Origin: a virus
Lineage: Duplodnaviria > Heunggongvirae > Uroviricota > Caudoviricetes
IMG/VR virus record: IMGVR_UViG_3300029702_000002
DNA length: 64,000 nt
Reading direction: 5' to 3' (one strand)
In this document: one piece after another, positions 4,406 to 48,630 of the stretch
Position numbering within the stretch: the first letter of the stretch is position 1
Layout of the letters: each line of letters starts with the position of its first letter
Program-made: the position numbers and the translations under genes
The notes under the pieces: model-generated
Database searches by the model: none
What the model was told of the DNA's origin: nothing
What the model saw: the letters and a program-made list of their open reading frames with translations, nothing else

Positions 4406-4466
4406 GTGTTTTTCTCTTATCGTTTAGTAACTACATTCTTACACAAATTAGGTAAGTATTTACCTA

Positions 4467-21149: not shown

Positions 21150-21222
21150 GTATCACCAAATAAAGAGGGCCACTAAATATAGTGGCCCATGTTAATAGAT
21201 AAGCACTTACCTATCAATGAAA

Positions 21223-39600: not shown

Positions 39601-40142
39601 GGATAAACCACACTATAGAAGTTGTCTTTTCCACCCGCTGTAATCAGTGTGCTTATGATTTTTGCAAAATCGTTGCGTTGGAACACGCTACCGATGTCGG
39701 AAGTAAGCAGGATGATGTTGCCTTTGGCATATGTAGAAACCAACTGTTCGAGCGAGAGACGCGGTACAAAGTAGAACTGTTCTCGTGTGTTGGCCGCCGT
39801 CATTAGTTCGCAGATGTCGCGATATCCTTGCTCATTTTTAATTAGAGCGGTAAACGAGTAGTTACGTCCCCGCTCTAATGATTCCATACATCTCATAGAT
39901 TCTTTAGCAAGTTTAGCCCGGTGCTCGTATGTGGGATCATCAACAATGTTTAGTTTCACACCACAAATAACCGCCATGTCGTCACCAGCGGCACGTTGTA
40001 GTGGAATAACGCTCGCAATATTCATGCTATCTGCTGAAATTACAGCGGTGTAGCCAGCTTCTCTGGCAATCTTCACCGCGTTTTCTGCTTTTAGAGCCGA
40101 CTCCCCAAGTGAGAAGTCAGTTCGAACCATCAGTGCCTTCAT
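36624..40142 (-). CDS. dnaE: DNA polymerase III alpha-like replicative polymerase
   Basis: 1172 aa; degenerate N-terminal PHP region, C-family polymerase core motifs. Confidence 0.85.
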   Translation of the reverse strand: MKALMVRTDFSLGESALKAENAVKIAREAGYTAVISADSMNIASVIPLQRAAGDDMAVICGVKLNIVDDPTYEHRAKLAKESMRCMESLERGRNYSFTALIKNEQGYRDICELMTAANTREQFYFVPRLSLEQLVSTYAKGNIILLTSDIGSVFQRNDFAKIISTLITAGGKDNFYSVVYPHPTPFYDQINVRAMKVASALKIEPVAFYPAYYESIDDADIKDIAHMVTNNIKIDQPHRLRIPHQRDNAVNGRRHLLEALKAFSVRMDVPVTAAMASTTQDTIIDACTWRWHELPPALPKMADDEPATLMKLAVAGLRKRLTTKEFGYTPPASENRVYVERLKYEMDTLTRLGFCGYFLMVRDLMNHSRETGIPVGPGRGSSAGSLVAWCIGITNVDPIRHGLLFERFINPERLDLPDADLDFSQARRHEVIEYLNERYGEDYVAGIPNFTYLGAASALRDTARIYGVESADMAVSKELKNVEDDSLPLEELREQLASLDKYATKYPDAFNAACKLQSLMRGFGRHAAGMIVAGVPLTERTPVERRGDARCIAFDKRYCEAMGLIKLDVLGLATLDLLDSAKRYIKENTGEDINLDAISLEDRKVLDGFAAGYTQGVFQLESGPMRKLLKDLGGGIEPMSFKTVVATTALFRPGPIQSGMLDDYVSVAKGFMTPESLHPVLDELTAETNGVILYQEQTMNATRLLAGFTMAEADAVRSAIGKKNMEKMKSMGEKFIVQAQAGWIDVELEDGTTQRIHRAEHFKCEDGTLKTVEEALEHGAKLPINAVRVTASHPGLSEMKAKEIWTAFEKNGAYQFNKSHSVAYSLISYQSMWLKTHYPAEFFAAALTILGEDKHQGLVKDALTYGIRVLPPDVNVSSNRIEIRTLEDGSQVLYAPFSAVKGCSENGCQAIMRAREKVGGKFESLAQFEEAVEKRACNSRVRESLQKVGAFASIEPGSLPATDPERLRDQAELMGNLVIDAVKASRPFEMNPKRSAEINALMTRMAAEMGLGDELIRPSIGIKPKIMIILDNANGNDARTGYFMENGYDDFKAKLLTAGDLRMGDLYVTGVCKKVKDKEKDYTKDEIGQFTDFIREEINLVHPTYVLTCGSRATSLFNNKSKPSDLVGRKEYLPELDVTVFYGFNPNILYFRPEEGEKLEAILAEVAETISK

Positions 40143-43860: not shown

Positions 43861-44073
43861 TTAACAGATTCTGACGGCTAAAGACCCGGAGCCGGTATTG
43901 AGAAGCGTGAAGCGTTTGTTGTTAAGTTCGAATATAAAGCCAGTTGTGTCATTCACACCAACCTGAATCTGCTCATTCGGTAGATCGGTGAGGATGTCAG
44001 CTACACACTCATCAGCTAATTTCTGTACGTGTCCGATCTCAAGAGCGATTAGGCTGGAAATAGTGGTGTTCAT
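43861..44073 (-). CDS. hypothetical protein (70 aa)
   Basis: ORF track; divergent from HTH gene. Confidence 0.4.
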   Translation of the reverse strand: MNTTISSLIALEIGHVQKLADECVADILTDLPNEQIQVGVNDTTGFIFELNNKRFTLLNTGSGSLAVRIC

Positions 44074-44250
44074 TCAATCAATCCATTCTAACTTATACTA
44101 TGGTAAGGAATACTACTAAAATTTATATCAATACTGAATACATTCATATCATATGCAAGTTGATTTTCTTACCTGTTTTGGGCTAATTTTTCTCCGTGCA
44201 ATGGCCTTTAACCGGTCTTTTAAGTGCCTATCGAAAAAAATGATAATAGC

Positions 44251-44278
44251 TTTACAACCCTAACCTTTGATGTAATAT
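44251..44278 (+). promoter_or_regulatory. putative sigma70-type promoter for the HTH regulator gene
   Basis: TTTACA (44251-44256), 16-bp spacer, TAATAT (44273-44278); flanked by TTACAACC/GGTTGTAA inverted repeat. Confidence 0.4.
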
Positions 44279-44324
44279 CGGTAAGCACTTACCAGAGAGA
44301 ATTGAACGCGCAAAGGTTGTAACC

Positions 44325-44711
44325 ATGTCTGATAACAAGATTGAATTTATAGAAAGTCGCTACGCTGCTTTTATCGCAGGGTTGATTGAATCCTCACCTA
44401 TGAGCCAGGCCCAGATAGCCAAAACAATTGGGTATAAAAACGCCAACAACCTTTCTTTAATTAAAAGCGGCAAAATTCCTTTGCCTATCGATAAGGTTCG
44501 TCCGCTGGCGCTGGCACTGGGCATTGAGCCAAGTCGTCTTATGATGATGGTGCTGGAAGAACGCCAACCCGAACTCGCAGCATTTTTATACAAAGAAGGC
44601 ACTGCTCCTCTTAACGAGGACGAAAAACAGGTTCTTGCTGCATATAACGAGCGATTCGGTAAAGAGAAAGGCGCATCACAAAAGGTTGTTGAGGCCATAA
44701 AGTCTCTATGA
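44325..44711 (+). CDS. helix-turn-helix transcriptional regulator
   Basis: MSQAQIAKTIGYKNANNLSLIKSGK HTH-like segment; 128 aa. Confidence 0.6.
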   Translation: MSDNKIEFIESRYAAFIAGLIESSPMSQAQIAKTIGYKNANNLSLIKSGKIPLPIDKVRPLALALGIEPSRLMMMVLEERQPELAAFLYKEGTAPLNEDEKQVLAAYNERFGKEKGASQKVVEAIKSL

Positions 44712-45809
44712 AAAATTTACACGAATAAGCTCTGTTGATAGACGATCTCCCTTAAATTTGTGGTCAATTTCGTCTAAATCCGGTTGCTCTACGATTGATG
44801 CGATGTACGTCGAGAAACTTTCTAAGGCGTCTCGCATCTCGTCCATATAATCGTGCCGGTCGTAGACCCGATCTATCCCCTCAAGACTGTGGTTCATGAT
44901 TTTACGTGATACCTCCTGGCTTATGCCTAATGCTGGGAAGTAACTACGCGCAGTACGGCGCAAATCTCGGGGTGTAAATGGCTCAAGCTCCATCAGTTCT
45001 GGTCGTTCCAGAATACGACGTAATGCCTGGGCTATTGCCACTTTAGACATAGGAAGGTCTTTCCCGATTTTTTTATTCGAAGGCACGAGCCACTGGCTGT
45101 CTTTACCATATTCGAACAACTCTTCAATACAAGTGCGCATTAATGAGCTTAAAGGCAGAGAATGCTCACGGGCAGATTTGTTCCTCTTGCCTTGATTCCA
45201 AACCCCACGCTTAAGATTGAACTCACTTTTTTTAGCCCGCAGTACTTCGTCAGGTCGTCTTGCGGATACAAGACATAGCCTGGCCGCCCATTTTGTACCA
45301 GCACACACATTGAAGTAGTCCCATATATTCCAGAACACCCATACCTCTGCGTCGGTCAGCTTCCGCTCGCGAGGTGTGGGCTTTGCGCCACCGGCAACTT
45401 TGTTAAGTGACATATCGTTTAACGGTGACACGTCTATCATCCCCTGGAAGGCGCACCAGCTAAGGAACTGCTTCATCAGAGAGAAAACGCGGCGGCCCAT
45501 AACAATTTTGCCATCCAGTATTAGTGGGTTGACCAGTTGGTTCACCATGAACCTATTAATGTCACTTACTTTTACATCGGCAATGTGCGGCAAAACATGT
45601 ATCAAAATACAATGAACAGCGATCTCTGGCCGACGTCTGGTTATCAGCAGAGATAAGCGAGTGAATAACATGAATGCGTCCGAGAATCTCATGTCATTGC
45701 TGACCTGGGAGATCATAACGGCCTGCATTTGAGATGCTCTTTCGAGATACTCTATCGCCTCTTTTGAGGTGTTCTCCGCAGCGCGTGCTCTGTCAAAGCT
45801 ATTTTTCAT
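44706..45809 (-). CDS. int: tyrosine recombinase / phage-type integrase
   Basis: C-terminal TPRDLRRTARSY ... NHSL ... VYDRHDY catalytic pattern. Confidence 0.8.
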   Translation of the reverse strand: MKNSFDRARAAENTSKEAIEYLERASQMQAVMISQVSNDMRFSDAFMLFTRLSLLITRRRPEIAVHCILIHVLPHIADVKVSDINRFMVNQLVNPLILDGKIVMGRRVFSLMKQFLSWCAFQGMIDVSPLNDMSLNKVAGGAKPTPRERKLTDAEVWVFWNIWDYFNVCAGTKWAARLCLVSARRPDEVLRAKKSEFNLKRGVWNQGKRNKSAREHSLPLSSLMRTCIEELFEYGKDSQWLVPSNKKIGKDLPMSKVAIAQALRRILERPELMELEPFTPRDLRRTARSYFPALGISQEVSRKIMNHSLEGIDRVYDRHDYMDEMRDALESFSTYIASIVEQPDLDEIDHKFKGDRLSTELIRVNFS

Positions 45810-45907
45810 ATGACAATCACCGAGTTACGCCGATGCACTGTATAAGTAAACAGTATATTAGGCATAGATTCTTATAGGATCAAGAGTAAAAGTAACTCAT
45901 TTTCAGC

Positions 45908-45940
45908 AATGATTCCATACATAGTAGGTATGGAATCATT
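45908..45940. repeat. perfect 13-bp inverted repeat AATGATTCCATAC / GTATGGAATCATT, 7-bp spacer
   Basis: Read directly; half-site recurs at 48975-48990 and 49988-50003. Confidence 0.8.
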
Positions 45941-46059
45941 GTGGGCATTTTTTATAAAATCTGTGATTCTTCTCAGGATAAATTATCTAAACTAAAAATT
46001 GTGTTTTGTGTTGGCATCTGCTTGAATAGACGCATGTTTATTCAGATATGGAATAATCA

Positions 46060-46596
46060 GTGAACAACCAAATTCATTGGGACTACCCATTCTCAGAAGA
46101 ATTCGGCAGTGGGATGGTACACAGACAATTCACTGTGGGAAGCACTATTTATGCCGTTGGGTTTGAACAAATATTGACGATGGATGATTTCACACGTAAG
46201 GGAGTTGATATCCTAAATGTACATCCAACATTCCGGTTTCCTCTGAGTGGTGTATGGGGAGTGATTTTTGACGAAATTGACCCTGTAGAAATGGATTTCA
46301 AAGGATTTCGGCATATCCAACATCAAGGCTTGGCAGGTGGTCAAGTGCTTTTGAATGTTGCAAGTATAATCTTTGACCATTATACTGTTTGTAACGCAGG
46401 AGCTTATGTCTTCTCCGCCGCAGTCGACCATCAGCATTTACGCAGAACTGACTTGGTAGACATTTACTGTAAGATACTGGGTCTAAATGGAAAACGTAAA
46501 AGTAGATTGTTCGCCAATGGTTTTCCTGGATGGGAGGCATACTGTGATGTACCAACAGGAGGAAGAGGCTATGTCGTCACGACTGAAAGTTATTAA
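46060..46596 (+). CDS. hypothetical protein (GTG start, no clear RBS)
   Basis: ORF track only. Confidence 0.3.
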   Translation: MNNQIHWDYPFSEEFGSGMVHRQFTVGSTIYAVGFEQILTMDDFTRKGVDILNVHPTFRFPLSGVWGVIFDEIDPVEMDFKGFRHIQHQGLAGGQVLLNVASIIFDHYTVCNAGAYVFSAAVDHQHLRRTDLVDIYCKILGLNGKRKSRLFANGFPGWEAYCDVPTGGRGYVVTTESY

Positions 46597-46798
46597 TTAT
46601 TACCCCACCTCTGCAGAACGTTTGAGCCTTGAAATGGGCGAAAGACTACAGAAAGCTGCTGGTCAGGATTTAAAGAACAAGTTGGGTTCAGGGGAAATTA
46701 AACTGATTAACGGTAAATATGTAGGTGAAAGCCTGAAAGTTAATAGCACCTCTATGCTAAAAGCGCGGTTGCGTAAAGCGTATATCCCCGCTAAATGA
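46571..46798 (+). CDS. hypothetical small protein (start at internal ATG with GGAGG RBS)
   Basis: ORF 46487..46798 trimmed to ATG at 46571 preceded by GGAGG. Confidence 0.4.
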   Translation: MSSRLKVINYYPTSAERLSLEMGERLQKAAGQDLKNKLGSGEIKLINGKYVGESLKVNSTSMLKARLRKAYIPAK

Positions 46799-46802
46799 AA
46801 AG

Positions 46803-46830
46803 GCCTATATGGGCCTTTTCATTTTTATAG
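46803..46830. terminator. putative bidirectional terminator between convergent genes
   Basis: GAAAAGGCC ... GGCCTTTTC hairpin flanked by A/T runs. Confidence 0.5.
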
Positions 46831-47070
46831 TGTACTCACCAGCGCCGCAAATTCCGTATACCCCCCAATATGCTCTCCATGTATGAATATCTGAGGTATG
46901 GTATCCACTGGTTTACCAACCAGGTTGCTCAACGTTTCTTTGTTGATCCCCGCAGATGTAATATCTATATACTCATAATCACCGTAGCCATGTCCCTTTA
47001 GTTGCTTCGCCAGCTCGACCGCACGTTTGCAGTATGAGCAGTTATCTCGTCCGTAGATAGTGATCGTCAT
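46825..47070 (-). CDS. glutaredoxin / NrdH-like redoxin
   Basis: IYGRDNCSYCKRA CxxC motif; 81 aa. Confidence 0.8.
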   Translation of the reverse strand: MTITIYGRDNCSYCKRAVELAKQLKGHGYGDYEYIDITSAGINKETLSNLVGKPVDTIPQIFIHGEHIGGYTEFAALVSTL

Positions 47071-47243
47071 AACTTAACAAATACCTTTATAAATATTGAT
47101 TCGAACATATCAGACTATACTACAAACAGATTTTTTTGATAAGTATGTAGTAACTTATTGATTGACTAGTAAACAATTGAAGTGATTACGACAATAGATT
47201 ACAGTAAGGATTGCCTTGAAATGTACATTTTATAGAGGTTTTA

Positions 47244-48152
47244 ATGATTGGTAAGTTGTCTGATTCTTTGATTGAAAATAAATACAACGAATTTAGAGAA
47301 GAAATATCTTTACTTTTTGACTATTTAAATCAGATAAATGATACAACAAAGAAAAATATAAAACGTCTTCTTAAAGAAGTGGAGTATGCACAAAATCCAG
47401 ATACTATTATTAATATTAATGAAACTATTAAGATTAAGTGTGGCACAACGTTAGCTCGCCATTTATGTTCAAACCCATATACAGGTTCAACATTAGAGAT
47501 AGGTAACAGCGCCATTGATTTAGAAGAAAAGATAAGATTGTGTAATACTTTGAAAAATAAACAATATCAGTGGGTTATTACTGAAGCCTATGAGTTACTG
47601 GAAGACTATATTGAGGCAATATATGTCTATACTGTATGTGTTCGAAATGATTTATGGTCCTCAAGTGATTTTGGTAAGGTTGAAGATGATGAAATTGGGA
47701 AAAGGGAAGTTTATTACAGATTATTAAAAGCAAAAAGTAACCCATCGAAAAAAATAACTAAAATTTTCAGAAATAAAATACCTGGCTTCAAAGAGATAGA
47801 AACAAACAACAAGATTGGCAAAAACTATCGCTTTAACATCAAGCTAATTGAACTACTAAGACATACAATAGTACACAATAGTGGACGATTCAATGATACA
47901 GAAAAATTTATAAATAAGGTTTTAGATGAATCTGAAATAAACGGTAAGAAAAGAGTTATTGGAGAAAGAGCTGTTAGAAGTTACATTACTAAAGTGCAAG
48001 AAGATGATATTGTGATGCTCTTAGAAAGACCATCTGAAATTTTAGGTTCTTTTGGTGGGTATTTTAACAGAGCAAAATTTTTACTAAGTGATATTTTAGA
48101 ATACTCACTAATCATTAAAGAAGAACTAAAATCATATCTAGGCAATCATTAA
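47244..48152 (+). CDS. HEPN-like (Abi-type) protein, candidate abortive-infection factor
   Basis: R-x4-H motif in LLRHTIVHNSG; AT-rich gene with AGAGG RBS and own terminator. Confidence 0.5.
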   Translation: MIGKLSDSLIENKYNEFREEISLLFDYLNQINDTTKKNIKRLLKEVEYAQNPDTIININETIKIKCGTTLARHLCSNPYTGSTLEIGNSAIDLEEKIRLCNTLKNKQYQWVITEAYELLEDYIEAIYVYTVCVRNDLWSSSDFGKVEDDEIGKREVYYRLLKAKSNPSKKITKIFRNKIPGFKEIETNNKIGKNYRFNIKLIELLRHTIVHNSGRFNDTEKFINKVLDESEINGKKRVIGERAVRSYITKVQEDDIVMLLERPSEILGSFGGYFNRAKFLLSDILEYSLIIKEELKSYLGNH

Positions 48153-48157
48153 CAAAA

Positions 48158-48185
48158 AAGGGGCCGAAGCCCCTTTGGATTTTGC
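48158..48185 (+). terminator. rho-independent terminator
   Basis: AAGGGGC-CGAA-GCCCCTT hairpin followed by TGGATTTT. Confidence 0.65.
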
Positions 48186-48330
48186 GCTTAAAAAAGTGTT
48201 GCTAGGATGTTAGCAAGCTATGGTTAAGAACGTCTGCCGTAATTGTCTATCACAGCGTTGAGCTGTCTGGTTTATGTTAGCGGAGTCTTAATCGAGTTGA
48301 TTAAAAGGCCAAACCGCTCAACGCTGTGTC

Positions 48331-48417
48331 TGGCGGAGAGTAATGGAATCGAACCATCATCGCTTGCGCAATGGGACGGTTTTCAAGACCGCTTGAGCAC
48401 CATGCTCCCTACTCTCC
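48331..48417 (-). tRNA. tRNA-Ser (anticodon UGA), class II with long variable arm
   Basis: Manual fold: acceptor GGAGAGT/ACTCTCC, anticodon loop CUUGAAA, long variable arm, T-loop TTCGATT, encoded CCA. Confidence 0.75.
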
Positions 48418-48630
48418 AATTGTTGTGGTGCCGGGTGCTTCCCGGTGTCCTTTGGCTGGTTATCCACCGTGGACGGAGCCAATAGTCATCACAAAGGATC
48501 AATATAACCATTTCCCCGCGTGCGCTTAGCCGCATTCACCACAACGAAAAGAGCACTGTATGACGTTTGCACGGACTTACGCTTCAAACAGGGCAGTCTC
48601 GGCGGTTCTCAATGCTCTTTCCTGTTGTGT

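What the first reader, a model, noticed from the sequence alone, without database searches (positions are those of the whole stretch)
43861..48185. Mosaic accessory locus beside the tRNA cluster: integrase, HTH regulator, HEPN-like protein, glutaredoxin
Strand orientation flips repeatedly, several genes are AT-rich with their own terminators, and a tyrosine integrase converges on an HTH regulator. The 47244..48152 protein carries an R-x4-H HEPN-type motif, as in Abi-type abortive-infection proteins. Integrase next to tRNAs could mean a small mobile island inside the phage, a multimer-resolution recombinase, or a defence/exclusion cargo.
Basis: partly seen in the sequence, partly recalled or inferred. 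Interest (0 to 1): 0.6.

Follow-up and report, generated by a model that had tools for sequence, protein, structure and literature searches.

The report
Phage-plasmid recombinase site and cargo hotspots
This stretch is not a small mobile island: it holds the conserved recombinase, its probable lox-like target site and a regulator of an SSU5-type E. coli phage-plasmid, followed by two slots where relatives carry different accessory genes, one slot here holding an uncharacterised, probably HEPN-type toxin-like gene.

Summary
All the genes, the strand flips, the AT-rich 302-aa gene (GC about 0.30) and the terminators are present. The window is an SSU5/pHCM2/pECOH89-type E. coli phage-plasmid, 100% identical to CP057798.1.

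The integrase and the HTH regulator are core genes, present in at least 576 PLSDB plasmids. They do not belong to a tRNA-targeting island, and the site next to the integrase is never chromosomal in 5,426 complete E. coli genomes.

About 100 bp upstream of the integrase lies AATGATTCCATAC-N7-GTATGGAATCATT. The arms are invariant, the 7-bp spacer varies by lineage, and the site is linked to an integrase homologue in 107 of 107 testable contigs. I read it as a lox-like resolution or circularisation site. Homology between relatives breaks at its right arm.

Two cargo slots follow, on either side of the core grxA gene. Slot A here carries a 178+75-aa two-gene cassette. Slot B here carries the 302-aa gene; relatives carry AbiGi, AbiH, an HNH nuclease or membrane proteins there.

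Three solitary half-sites are conserved in all lineages and remain unexplained.

The parts
43861..44073 (-). Conserved 70-aa ORF divergent from the HTH gene; function unknown; part of the core module.
   Evidence: phrog_2627, E 8.8e-41. Present in all annotated relatives.
44251..44293 (+). Probable HTH promoter (TTTACA-16-TAATAT, 44251-44278) followed by the conserved palindrome GGTAAGCACTTACC (44280-44293), a candidate operator for the HTH regulator itself.
   Evidence: Promoter scan. The block is conserved across lineages whose flanks have diverged. Near-copies lie at 4451 and 21198, each upstream of a minus-strand gene; 3 matches against 0.08 expected.
44325..44711 (+). 128-aa XRE-type HTH regulator, core gene. 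Its homologue in phage-plasmid Cyrano (CYRAN_45) is annotated 'putative repressor'.
   Evidence: HTH_19, HTH_37 and HTH_3 hits, and phrog_8 at E 1.3e-11. Conserved convergent with the integrase even in L075, where the integrase is 56% identical. PMC9928086 lists CYRAN_45 as putative repressor, expressed 10-fold above the prophage background.
44706..45809 (-). 367-aa tyrosine recombinase, core gene. No arm-binding N-terminal domain was detected.
   Evidence: PF00589 at 40.6 bits against a cut-off of 27.1, and phrog_1 at E 4.8e-47. Present at 80% coverage or more in 576 PLSDB plasmids. NCBIfam PRK09692 matches only profile positions 137-393. Candidate catalytic residues read from the sequence: R (SARRPDE), K (GKRNK), R-x-x-R (RDLRRT, where the first His is replaced by Arg, also in L075), H (MNHS) and Y (RVYDR).
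45908..45940 (.). Candidate recombination site: AATGATTCCATAC (45908-45920), spacer ATAGTAG (45921-45927), GTATGGAATCATT (45928-45940). It lies about 100 bp upstream of the integrase start codon and forms the left boundary of cargo slot A.
   Evidence: Inverted repeat I10. The arms are invariant in 75 loci while the spacer varies by lineage. 114 IMG/VR contigs carry the site; 107 of 107 testable ones have an integrase homologue (55-100% aa identity) starting 46-102 bp away. Homology between relatives ends 0-2 nt after the right arm in 137 of 210 flank pairs.
46060..46596 (+). Slot A cargo, gene 1 (178 aa, no known domain).
   Evidence: No Pfam, PHROG, PADLOC or NCBIfam hit. 43 homologous clusters in Enterobacterales. 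Always paired with a 75-aa gene. Complete in only 10 PLSDB records.
46571..46798 (+). Slot A cargo, gene 2 (75 aa), overlapping gene 1 by 26 nt.
   Evidence: Annotated in CP057798.1. The same 178/189 + 75-aa pair with the same overlap occurs in a Yersinia aldovae prophage region and in the Dickeya chromosome.
46793..46824 (.). Palindromic, probably bidirectional terminator between the slot A cargo and grxA.
   Evidence: Inverted repeat I14, 16-nt arms, 94% complementary.
46825..47070 (-). GrxA-family glutaredoxin, a backbone gene between the two slots. It is probably the electron donor for the plasmid's own NrdAB.
   Evidence: NF008401 at 110.6 bits against a cut-off of 84. Found in most relatives at 75-86% aa identity whatever the cargo. 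nrdA and nrdB are on the same plasmid.
47244..48152 (+). Slot B cargo: 302-aa AT-rich gene of an unannotated family with an invariant E...Rx4H signature. Candidate HEPN-type single-gene abortive-infection or exclusion effector.
48157..48176 (.). Bidirectional intrinsic terminator (GGGGC-TTCG-GCCCC with T runs on both strands). It ends both the 302-aa gene and the tRNA operon and is the right boundary of slot B.
   Evidence: It belongs to the block 48151-48300, which is conserved in Escherichia, Klebsiella, Enterobacter and Salmonella whatever the cargo.
48186..48330 (-). Conserved, strongly structured segment directly downstream of tRNA-Ser, with a 20-bp stem (48251-48270 pairing with 48309-48328).
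   Evidence: Inverted repeat I5. Fold energy -58.7 kcal/mol, z = -5.8, with 0 of 200 shuffles as stable. Conserved across genera.
48331..48783 (-). tRNA cluster Ser(tga), Thr(tgt), Asn(gtt), with a 213-bp insert between Ser and Thr.
   Evidence: ARAGORN and Rfam. Relatives carry 1, 3 or 4 tRNAs.
39877..39889 (+). Solitary half-site AATGATTCCATAC followed by ATC, inside the dnaE coding sequence and antisense to it (codons C-M-E-S-L).
   Evidence: Conserved at -6.0 to -6.3 kb from the full site in every lineage that has enough sequence.
48978..48990 (-). Solitary half-site AATGATTCCATAC followed by ATC, upstream of the tRNA operon and pointing toward the full site.
49991..50003 (-). Solitary half-site TATGATTCCATAC followed by ATC, coinciding with the start codon of a 50-aa ORF.
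   Evidence: It lies about 1.01 kb beyond the previous half-site in all E. coli-type loci.

Best explanation
The segment is the junction between a conserved recombination and regulation module and two cargo hotspots in an SSU5/pHCM2-type phage-plasmid.

(1) Recombinase module. The integrase is a core, simple tyrosine recombinase. I infer that it acts on the 13-7-13 site about 100 bp upstream of its own gene. The likely tasks are resolving plasmid multimers and perhaps circularising incoming phage DNA, as Cre does at loxP in P1. It does not appear to move an island or to integrate at a tRNA.

(2) Regulator. The convergent HTH protein is the element's repressor-type regulator. It has its own operator, GGTAAG-N2-CTTACC.

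(3) Cargo slots. To the right of the site there are two replaceable slots, one from the site to grxA and one from grxA to the tRNA-operon terminator. Each slot is insulated by terminators. Related plasmids carry different accessory genes in them, mostly toxin-like or abortive-infection genes.

(4) Cargo in this plasmid. Slot A carries a 178+75-aa two-gene cassette of unknown function. Slot B carries a 302-aa protein of an unannotated family. I predict this protein to be a HEPN-type RNase that acts alone as an abortive-infection or superinfection-exclusion effector, with E117, R206 and H211 as its active site.

Shown here: gene content, conservation and variability, site architecture and its linkage to the integrase, sharp homology breaks at the site, invariant residues, and the confidence of the structure model. 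Inferred: binding of the integrase to the site, the resolution function, the HEPN RNase chemistry, and the defence phenotype.
For: Identity of the element: 100% match to plasmid CP057798.1, and SSU5-like phage records such as Cyrano.

Core status of the integrase: present at 80% coverage or more in 576 plasmids of four genera.

The site:
- The arms are invariant in 75 loci, with lineage-specific 7-bp spacers.
- 107 of 107 testable IMG/VR contigs that carry the site have an integrase homologue starting 46-102 bp away, down to 55% aa identity.
- No chromosomal copy in 5,426 complete E. coli genomes.
- No arm-binding domain detected in the integrase.
- The HTH gene has a different conserved palindrome at its own promoter, with near-copies upstream of nrdA and another gene. 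This makes the integrase the more likely binder of ATGATTCCATAC.

The hotspots:
- 11 slot A clusters and 17 slot B clusters among about 60 loci.
- Homology ends 0-2 nt after the right arm in 137 of 210 flank pairs, while the left flanks are always conserved.
- L029 and L064 are 76% identical left of the site and 92% identical to the right.
- In PhiR41_1 the homology stops at window position 45940.
- Slot B of relatives holds AbiGi (4.2e-25), AbiH (3e-62), an HNH nuclease matching PDC-M68A (8.3e-25), and a protein carrying IRNIMAHNDG.
- The slot A gene of Cyrano is expressed 723-fold above the prophage background in lysogens (PMC9928086).

The 302-aa protein:
- 453 clusters in the exhaustive search.
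- E117, R206 and H211 are invariant in 142 sequences.
- AF2 model at pLDDT 92.5 and pTM 0.89.
- The most recurrent weak PADLOC hit among 142 members is the Csx1/Csm6 CARF+HEPN model: 3 members, best E 0.0033.
- A 33%-identical paralogue sits alone between tam and uxaB in E. coli chromosomes.
Against: There is no experimental or sequence-trace evidence that the integrase cuts at the site. No excision circles, dimers or site-bounded inversions appeared in the loci examined.

A symmetric palindrome about 100 bp upstream of a gene could also be an operator. It was also flagged by the simple terminator scan.

The first His of the HxxR box is Arg in this integrase family.

For the 302-aa protein:
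- No HEPN or Abi profile from Pfam, PADLOC or NCBIfam reaches significance.
- Foldseek against the PDB finds nothing at E 0.001 or better.
- I could not inspect coordinates to check that E117, R206 and H211 lie together.
- In the model, Rx4H lies at the C-terminal end of helix 195-212. From memory, in canonical HEPN domains the motif lies near the start of the last core helix.
- No partner antitoxin or sensor gene is present.

Cargo exchange may be driven by ordinary homologous recombination between conserved flanks rather than by the integrase.
Confidence: 0.6

Rival explanations
1. One reading: the integrase belongs to a small mobile island that inserted next to, or into, the tRNA cluster inside the phage and brought the HTH, HEPN-like and glutaredoxin genes with it.
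For: Integrases are often found next to tRNA genes. The 45.9-48.2 kb region is variably present. GC drops to 0.30 over the 302-aa gene.
Against: The integrase and HTH genes are present in 576 related plasmids whatever the cargo. grxA is backbone. The variation falls into two independent slots, not one island. No direct repeats of tRNA ends were found; the only 15-nt match to tRNA-Asn lies inside the integrase coding sequence (D14). The site next to the integrase is a symmetric palindrome unrelated to any tRNA and is never chromosomal.
Confidence: 0.04
2. The 13-7-13 palindrome is not a recombination site. It is an operator or a transcription element, such as a hairpin terminator or attenuator, that controls the integrase or the slot A cargo. 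The solitary half-sites are further binding sites of the same regulator, and the integrase acts elsewhere or is idle.
For: The site lies about 100 bp upstream of the integrase start codon, where regulators bind. The simple terminator scan flags it: 15-pair stem and a T-rich tail. Half-sites with a shared ATC extension are scattered over 10 kb, like the asymmetric operators of the P1 C1 repressor. That comparison rests on my own knowledge.
Against: The T-rich tail is not conserved, because homology ends at the right arm. No + strand gene upstream needs terminating there. The arms never show the compensatory drift expected of an RNA stem, while the loop/spacer varies freely. That pattern, together with 13-bp arms and a 7-bp spacer, is the usual geometry of tyrosine-recombinase core sites (my own knowledge). 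The neighbouring HTH regulator has a different conserved palindrome at its own promoter and at two other promoters. The motif occurs nowhere else in the 109-kb plasmid, unlike a global operator.
Confidence: 0.2
3. The 302-aa protein is not a HEPN nuclease or a defence effector. It is an all-helical protein with some other role, for example anti-defence, regulation or a structural/membrane-associated function, and the conserved R-x4-H is a family-specific motif unrelated to RNA cleavage.
Confidence: 0.3
4. Cargo turnover has nothing to do with the integrase. The two slots vary by homologous recombination between co-resident phage-plasmids using the conserved flanks (integrase plus site, grxA, terminator plus tRNA), and the site merely happens to be the last conserved sequence.
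For: Each slot is bracketed by conserved backbone blocks. The slots vary independently. Spacers differ between lineages, which should hinder site-specific exchange across lineages. This model is compatible with a pure resolution role for the integrase.
Against: Homology breaks within 0-2 nt of the right arm rather than at scattered points. The mosaic L029/L064 junction joins backbones only 76% identical, a poor substrate for RecA-dependent exchange.
Confidence: 0.45

Closest known systems
Cre-loxP of phage-plasmid P1 (and XerCD-dif/cer multimer resolution)
   Same: A tyrosine recombinase encoded by a plasmid prophage. Its putative target lies just upstream of its own gene and consists of two 13-bp inverted arms around a short asymmetric spacer. 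No arm-type binding domain was detected. The element is never found integrated. The expected role is dimer resolution or circularisation.
   Different: The recombinase has no detectable sequence similarity to any solved recombinase (phmmer against the PDB: 0 hits). The spacer is 7 bp, not 8. The first His of HxxR is Arg. Three conserved solitary half-sites lie 3-6 kb away, which loxP does not have. No activity has been shown.
HEPN-domain abortive-infection and toxin proteins (HEPN/MNT toxins such as HI0074 and SO_3166; AbiD/F, AbiJ, AbiU2, AbiV, AbiA C-terminal domain, RnlA, HepS)
   Different: No profile of any described HEPN or Abi family matches. The protein is 302 aa with a long N-terminal helix and beta-hairpin in front of the helical domain. 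It has no MNT, antitoxin or sensor partner. The fold evidence does not separate it from generic helical bundles.
Defence/accessory hotspots of temperate phages and satellites (for example the P2 and P4 hotspots) and the variable plasmid-like regions of phage-plasmids
   Same: Fixed positions between conserved backbone genes where relatives carry different, often AT-rich, terminator-insulated toxin, Abi or nuclease genes. Published surveys already report defence systems in SSU5-group phage-plasmids (bioRxiv 10.1101/2025.09.12.675607).
   Different: Here one hotspot boundary coincides to the base with the putative recombinase site. None of the papers I read located the hotspot in the SSU5 group or mentioned the integrase.
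R64 shufflon (Rci recombinase with sfx sites) and integron attI/attC platforms
   Same: A tyrosine recombinase next to a primary site, plus several further sites in which only one roughly 12-bp arm is conserved (as in sfx, from my own knowledge). Variable genes lie between the sites.
   Different: No inversion of the intervening segments was seen in about 60 loci. One half-site lies inside dnaE. The half-sites carry no attC-like structure. Variation occurs in two sub-slots rather than as whole cassettes bounded by the sites.

Membership tests
HEPN superfamily | Conserved R-x4-6-H motif, usually with a polar residue after the Arg | tested here: met
   R206-H-T-I-V-H211. R206 and H211 are invariant and H207 is conserved in at least 90% of 142 family members.
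HEPN superfamily | All-alpha up-down helical bundle that superposes on solved HEPN domains | tested here: inconclusive
HEPN superfamily | Significant sequence-profile match to a described HEPN family | tested here: not met
   Pfam: 0 hits for the protein, and only HEPN_Apea at E 0.022 in 1 of 51 members. PADLOC: Csx1/Csm6 CARF+HEPN in 3 of 142 members, best E 0.0033, and Cas13a in 1 member at 0.013. PDB profile search: no HEPN entry.
HEPN superfamily | Metal-independent RNase activity that depends on the R and H residues | not testable with these tools
   Needs biochemistry.
Described Abi systems (AbiD/F, AbiJ, AbiU, AbiV, AbiH, AbiG and others) | Profile match to the family model | tested here: not met
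   No PADLOC or Pfam Abi model matches the 302-aa protein. AbiGi and AbiH do match other cargo proteins in the same slot of relatives.
Tyrosine recombinase (phage integrase family) | Catalytic-domain profile above the curated threshold | tested here: met
   PF00589 at 40.6 bits against 27.1, and phrog_1 at E 4.8e-47.
Tyrosine recombinase (phage integrase family) | Catalytic R-K-H-R-H/W-Y residues | tested here: inconclusive
   Read from the sequence only: R (SARRPDE), K (GKRNK), RDLRRT (first His replaced by Arg; same in L075), H (MNHS) and Y (RVYDR). No structural alignment was possible, because no solved homologue was found.
Cre/lox-like or Xer/dif-like simple resolution system | Core site of two inverted recombinase-binding arms around a 6-8 bp spacer, genetically linked to the recombinase | tested here: met
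   13-7-13 site with invariant arms. 107 of 107 testable contigs with the site have the integrase 46-102 bp away.
Cre/lox-like or Xer/dif-like simple resolution system | Recombinase-dependent resolution of directly repeated sites, giving plasmid monomerisation | not testable with these tools
   Needs a two-site deletion assay and plasmid stability assays.
Integrative island or prophage integrase at a tRNA gene | Island bounded by direct repeats of the tRNA 3' end; integrase present only with the island; chromosomal attB | tested here: not met
   No such repeats. The integrase is core. 0 chromosomal places in 5,426 E. coli genomes.
Accessory/defence hotspot | Different unrelated gene sets at the same position between conserved flanks in close relatives, including known defence genes | tested here: met
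   Slot A has 11 clusters, including an empty 78-81 bp form in 29 loci. Slot B has 17 clusters. Known defence genes found there: AbiGi, AbiH and an HNH nuclease matching PDC-M68A.
GrxA glutaredoxin | Equivalog model above the cut-off and a CxxC active site | tested here: met
   NF008401 at 110.6 bits against 84. C-S-Y-C at residues 11-14.
Integron or shufflon-type multi-site platform | Cassettes or segments bounded by secondary sites and seen inserted, excised or inverted among relatives | tested here: not met
   Half-sites are conserved in place, but no inversion of grx or the tRNAs was seen in about 60 loci, and variation occurs in sub-slots not bounded by half-sites.

The most novel reading that the evidence does not exclude
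The conserved integrase, its 13-7-13 site and the three or four conserved solitary half-sites (TGATTCCATAC-AYC) all point toward the full site. One of the half-sites is kept inside the dnaE coding sequence. Together they could form a previously undescribed multi-site recombination platform in SSU5-type phage-plasmids. Such a platform would capture, exchange or topologically organise cargo at the base-precise boundary of the hotspot, much as an integron or shufflon does, and so drive the turnover of defence genes between phage-plasmid lineages whose backbones are only about 75% identical. In that reading the 302-aa gene would be the founding member of a new single-gene HEPN-like abortive-infection family.
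Probability: 0.12. Interest if true: 0.8.

Novelty: new member of a known kind. Interest (0 to 1): 0.45.

Why it matters
SSU5/pHCM2-type phage-plasmids are common. The integrase-linked site occurs in 216 of 5,426 complete E. coli genomes, and relatives include Yersinia pestis pMT1-like and Salmonella Typhi pHCM2-like plasmids. Yet their 'integrase' has no assigned role.

A defined lox-like site with naturally heterospecific spacers would explain how these large low-copy elements stay monomeric. It would also add a new orthogonal recombinase/site pair for genetic engineering.

Pinning down two base-precise cargo slots gives a simple way to mine new anti-phage or exclusion genes from hundreds of sequenced plasmids. 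The 302-aa E...Rx4H family (453 clusters, no annotation anywhere), the 420-450-aa membrane proteins and the 178+75-aa cassette are immediate candidates.

The conserved half-sites, including one embedded in dnaE, are an unexplained regularity worth an experiment.

Tried and rejected
(1) tRNA-derived att repeats. The repeat finder over 43.7-48.9 kb gave only a 15-nt, one-mismatch match between the integrase coding sequence and tRNA-Asn. Rejected as chance.

(2) Chromosomal integration. A search with the 71-bp site against 5,426 E. coli genomes gave 0 chromosomal places.

(3) Direct family assignment of the 302-aa protein. Pfam, PHROGs, NCBIfam, PADLOC and PDB sequence searches with the single sequence and with profiles of 51 and 142 members gave nothing significant.

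(4) Foldseek against the PDB returned only helical noise. The afdb50 library was not available.

(5) hhalign of the family profile against the IRNIMAHNDG protein from a relative's slot aligned the two motifs, but at a probability of only 2%. Uninformative.

(6) Genomic context of distant family members. P0008 sits next to an unknown 562-aa gene, which tells nothing. P0010 is a solitary chromosomal gene.

(7) Scattered-operator idea for ATGATTCCATAC. The motif occurs only five times in the whole plasmid, all within 10 kb of the integrase, so it is not a genome-wide operator like those of P1 C1.

(8) Shufflon-like inversion. No relative has grx or the tRNAs inverted. The flipped spacers in PhiR41_1 and L068 are not tied to any particular right-flank arrangement: L068 keeps grx in the usual orientation, and L038 has PhiR41_1's right flank with the unflipped spacer. 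They may reflect hairpin-mediated flipping.

(9) PhiR41_1 as a site-bounded cassette swap. The left end is exactly at the site, but the right end is 526 bp beyond a half-site and involves an IS remnant, so the case is not clean.

(10) Literature. A full-text search for the arm sequence found only unrelated papers. The SSU5 and phage-plasmid papers I read do not discuss the integrase site or the location of this hotspot.

Full report
WHAT THE WINDOW IS

The segment 43000-49000 is 100% identical to E. coli plasmid pRHB14-C22_3 (CP057798.1, 108,954 bp). It is 94-99% identical in parts to the phage records Escherichia phage Cyrano, CMS-2020a and PhiR41_1. These are SSU5/pHCM2/pECOH89-type phage-plasmids. 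The flanking genes are dnaE, cobS-like and cobT-like genes on one side and DNA ligase and primase on the other. The same replicon carries nrdAB, tail, capsid and terminase genes.

CHECK OF THE OBSERVATION

- a 70-aa ORF (43861-44073, -);
- an XRE-type HTH regulator (44325-44711, +);
- a tyrosine recombinase (44706-45809, -), with PF00589 at 40.6 bits against a cut-off of 27.1;
- GrxA (46825-47070, -), with NF008401 at 110.6 bits against 84;
- a 302-aa ORF (47244-48152, +).

GC falls to 0.29-0.31 across the 302-aa gene. Two palindromic terminators, at 46793-46824 and 48157-48176, insulate the cargo. The RHTIVH motif is real. The only correction is that the second gene of the 46.0-46.8 kb cargo is the 75-aa frame at 46571-46798.

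CORE VERSUS VARIABLE DNA

In PLSDB the integrase gene is found at 80% coverage or more in 576 plasmids: 229 Escherichia, 297 Klebsiella, 63 Yersinia and 8 Shigella among all 601 matches. The 302-aa gene region is complete in only 29 records, and the 45.9-46.8 kb cargo in only 10.

I fetched 71 IMG/VR loci through the integrase and six annotated records, and placed anchors on them. The architecture is always the same:

cobT - 70-aa ORF - HTH -> <- integrase - [site] - slot A - grxA - slot B - [terminator + structured block] - tRNAs

Slot A is 'empty' (78-81 bp) in 29 loci. Elsewhere it holds one of ten other contents:
- a YafO-like toxin plus a 202-aa gene;
- a 329-aa low-GC gene;
- the Cyrano 184-aa gene;
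- a RelE/ParE-type pair in L075;
- the 178+75-aa cassette of this window, among others.

Slot B has 17 contents:
- only a Gp49-family gene;
- the 302-aa gene, or a 57-60% identical allele of it;
- 420-450-aa membrane proteins in several alleles, with GC 0.30-0.34;
- AbiGi (PF10899, 4.2e-25) plus a 403-aa gene;
- AbiH (PF14253, 3e-62);
- an HNH nuclease matching PADLOC PDC-M68A (8.3e-25) plus a lipoprotein;
- a 242-aa protein carrying IRNIMAHNDG;
- a 529-aa membrane protein.

The tRNA set also varies, with 1, 3 or 4 genes. The 'mosaic accessory locus' is therefore real. It consists of two hotspots around a backbone glutaredoxin, not one island. The integrase, the HTH gene and grxA are not cargo.

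THE INTEGRASE AND ITS PROBABLE SITE

About 100 bp upstream of the integrase start codon lies AATGATTCCATAC-ATAGTAG-GTATGGAATCATT (45908-45940, I10).

In all 75 loci where the motif was found, both arms are identical. This includes loci whose integrase is only 84-86% identical in protein and whose flanking DNA no longer aligns. The 7-bp spacer differs by lineage: ATAGTAG, TTAATAG, CTTACAA, CTAAGGA and others.

An independent scan of IMG/VR for TGATTCCATAC-N7-GTATGGAATCA found 114 contigs, of which 113 were retrieved as loci for analysis. In 107 of the 107 that have enough sequence, an integrase homologue (55-100% aa identity) starts 46-102 bp from the site, with a median of 101 bp. At least 15 spacer variants occur.

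Invariant 13-bp inverted arms around a free 7-bp spacer, tightly linked to a tyrosine recombinase gene, is the geometry of a recombinase core site. That comparison with loxP, FRT, dif and lambda core sites rests on established knowledge.

The recombinase has no detectable arm-binding N-terminal domain. The site occurs in 216 of 5,426 complete E. coli genomes, always on plasmids and never on a chromosome. No tRNA-derived repeats exist in the segment.

My best reading is a Cre/loxP-like system for multimer resolution, and possibly circularisation, of the plasmid prophage. This is an inference. Nothing here shows catalysis, and the first His of HxxR is Arg in this family.

The rival reading is that the palindrome is an operator. 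It is weakened, though not excluded, by two findings. The adjacent HTH gene has a different conserved palindrome, GGTAAGCACTTACC, immediately after its own -10 element. Near-copies of that palindrome lie upstream of nrdA and of another gene: 3 matches against 0.08 expected. PMC9928086 lists the Cyrano homologue as the putative repressor.

THE SITE IS THE EDGE OF THE HOTSPOT

Among 43 E. coli-type loci the 80 nt to the left of the site are homologous in every pairwise comparison. To the right, 137 of 210 pairs of distinct flanks lose homology within 0-2 nt of the right arm. Three further observations agree with this:
- PhiR41_1 matches the window up to position 45940 and then carries a fimbrial cluster.
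- L029 (E. coli-type integrase) and L064 (Klebsiella-type integrase) are 76% identical left of the site and 92% identical over 5 kb to its right.
- Several cargo clusters are shared between lineages whose backbones are about 75% identical.

This fits exchange at or next to the site. It does not prove that the integrase is involved. Homologous recombination between the conserved flanks remains a good alternative.

AN UNEXPLAINED REGULARITY

The 12-mer ATGATTCCATAC occurs exactly five times in the whole 108,954-bp plasmid, against 0.013 expected. Two copies are the arms of the full site. The other three are solitary copies, each followed by ATC:
- 39877(+), inside dnaE and antisense to it;
- 48978(-), upstream of the tRNA operon;
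- 49991(-), at the start codon of a 50-aa ORF.

All lie within 10 kb of the integrase and all point toward the full site. Equivalent half-sites are present in every lineage, including L075 (integrase 56% identical), although their flanks differ. Klebsiella-type elements have one more half-site inside the integrase gene. In dnaE, the synonymous positions of the C-M-E-S-L codons are frozen.

I found no inversion or deletion bounded by these half-sites. A shufflon-like or integron-like role is therefore not supported, and I cannot explain them.

THE 302-AA PROTEIN

The word-indexed search found only 8 clusters, all from E. coli phage-plasmid-sized contigs. The exhaustive profile search found 453 representative clusters at E 1e-3 or better, 142 of them at 1e-30 or better, and nearly all 285-320 aa long. 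Every member that carries a name is called 'hypothetical'.

In an alignment of 142 members with a mean column identity of 24%, the only invariant residues are E117, R206 and H211. N105, Q107, W110, E120, H207, V210 and G214 are conserved in at least 90%.

No model from Pfam, NCBIfam, PADLOC or PDB sequence searches matches. The most recurrent weak PADLOC hit is the Csx1/Csm6 CARF+HEPN model: 3 of 142 members, best E 0.0033.

AlphaFold2 with the 51-sequence alignment gives a confident model, with pLDDT 92.5 and pTM 0.89. The model has a long N-terminal helix, a beta-hairpin, and a helical domain from residue 93 to 302.

I therefore rate HEPN membership as likely but unproven. The motif criterion is met, the fold criterion is inconclusive, and the profile criterion is not met.

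Context supports an accessory, toxin-like or defence role. The gene is AT-rich, has its own terminator, and is interchangeable with AbiGi, AbiH and HNH genes in relatives. A 33%-identical paralogue sits alone between tam and uxaB in E. coli chromosomes.

Proposed mechanism (inferred): a HEPN-type RNase, probably dimeric, is held inactive through its N-terminal helix and beta-hairpin region. Infection activates it to cleave RNA and abort infection or exclude competing phages.

THE SLOT A CARGO OF THIS WINDOW

The 178-aa and 75-aa genes overlap by 26 nt. They recur as a pair in a Yersinia aldovae prophage region, next to an antiterminator Q gene and an Mrr-type nuclease gene, and in the Dickeya chromosome. 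They match no known domain. This is a mobile two-gene cassette of unknown function.

In Cyrano, the non-homologous gene in the same slot is expressed 723-fold above the prophage background in lysogens (PMC9928086). Slot A cargo therefore behaves as a moron.

COMPARISON WITH WHAT IS KNOWN, AND NOVELTY

The element type, the presence of defence genes in SSU5-group phage-plasmids (bioRxiv 10.1101/2025.09.12.675607) and the idea of phage hotspots are all known. The exact sequence is already public.

I did not find the following described in the literature searched:
- the integrase-linked 13-7-13 site with heterospecific spacers;
- the base-precise position of the two slots;
- the conserved half-sites;
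- any annotation of the E...Rx4H family.

I class the finding as a new member of known kinds: a lox-like resolution module, a defence hotspot, and a HEPN-like Abi candidate. It is of moderate interest. There is a low-probability but more novel reading, in which the multi-site arrangement is a cargo-exchange platform.

Noticed in passing
window 39877-39889(+), 48978-48990(-), 49991-50003(-): Solitary copies of the recombinase-site arm (A/T)ATGATTCCATAC, each followed by ATC. The 12-mer occurs only 5 times in the 109-kb plasmid, against 0.013 expected. The copies are conserved at equivalent positions in all lineages, and one sits inside the dnaE coding sequence with frozen synonymous positions. 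All point toward the full site. Function unknown.
   Followed up: partly
window 44280-44293; near-copies at 4451-4464 and 21198-21211: The palindrome GGTAAG-N2-CTTACC lies right after the -10 element of the HTH gene. One-mismatch copies lie in the intergenic regions upstream of a 234-aa gene and upstream of nrdA (3 matches against 0.08 expected). This is probably the operator set of the putative repressor.
   Followed up: partly
window 48186-48330 (-): About 145 nt directly downstream of tRNA-Ser fold very stably (z = -5.8), with a 20-bp stem. The segment is conserved in Escherichia, Klebsiella, Enterobacter and Salmonella relatives whatever the neighbouring cargo. It could be a processed sRNA or a degenerate tRNA-like element.
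   Followed up: partly
window 48395-48563 (-): The 213-bp insert between tRNA-Ser and tRNA-Thr gives an Rfam match to the sRNA family STnc100 just below the gathering score (44.1 against 47 bits, E 2.8e-7). Cyrano lacks the insert; its Ser and Thr genes are 8 bp apart.
   Followed up: no
window 48331-48783 and relatives L001-L070: The tRNA repertoire varies among relatives: Asn only (Klebsiella type), Ser-Thr-Asn (this window, Cyrano) or Ser-Thr-Tyr-Asn (most E. coli-type loci). The Thr-Asn (and Ser) genes are about 90% identical to those of phage-plasmids P1, P7 and D6, which suggests exchange between unrelated phage-plasmid families.
   Followed up: partly
slot B of relatives, e.g. L007 (oriented slot coordinates 175-1437), L009, L037, L043, L008, L063: A family of 420-450-aa proteins with an N-terminal membrane segment and the conserved motif ATAWNAYEA(R/K)KSAKAA is the most frequent slot B cargo, in several diverged alleles with GC 0.30-0.34. 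It has no Pfam or PADLOC hit. It is another candidate defence or exclusion gene.
   Followed up: partly
window 45941-45975 and the equivalent position in relatives: About 15-30 bp to the right of the site, most otherwise unrelated cargo types share a loose motif (T-run followed by GAA(A/T)TCTG or AAATTCTGA). The functional site may therefore extend beyond the right arm, or incoming cargo may bring a common promoter or accessory element.
   Followed up: no
full-site spacer in L002 (PhiR41_1) and L068: The 7-bp spacer is the exact reverse complement of the spacer of the respective lineage (CTACTAT against ATAGTAG; CTATTAA against TTAATAG), while the arms and, in L068, the neighbouring genes are unchanged. 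The spacer can therefore flip on its own.
   Followed up: partly
L079 27195-30486 (CP057798.1 77195-80486, outside the window): The plasmid carries metG (methionine-tRNA ligase) and apbC, which look like a captured piece of chromosome.
   Followed up: no
L081 (PhiR41_1, PV340561.1 80.6-86.6 kb): In PhiR41_1 the whole stretch from slot A to the ligase gene (window 45941-51504) is replaced by a GadW-like regulator plus a chaperone-usher-type fimbrial cluster and an IS remnant. This phage-plasmid therefore lacks grxA, the tRNAs and the ligase.
   Followed up: partly
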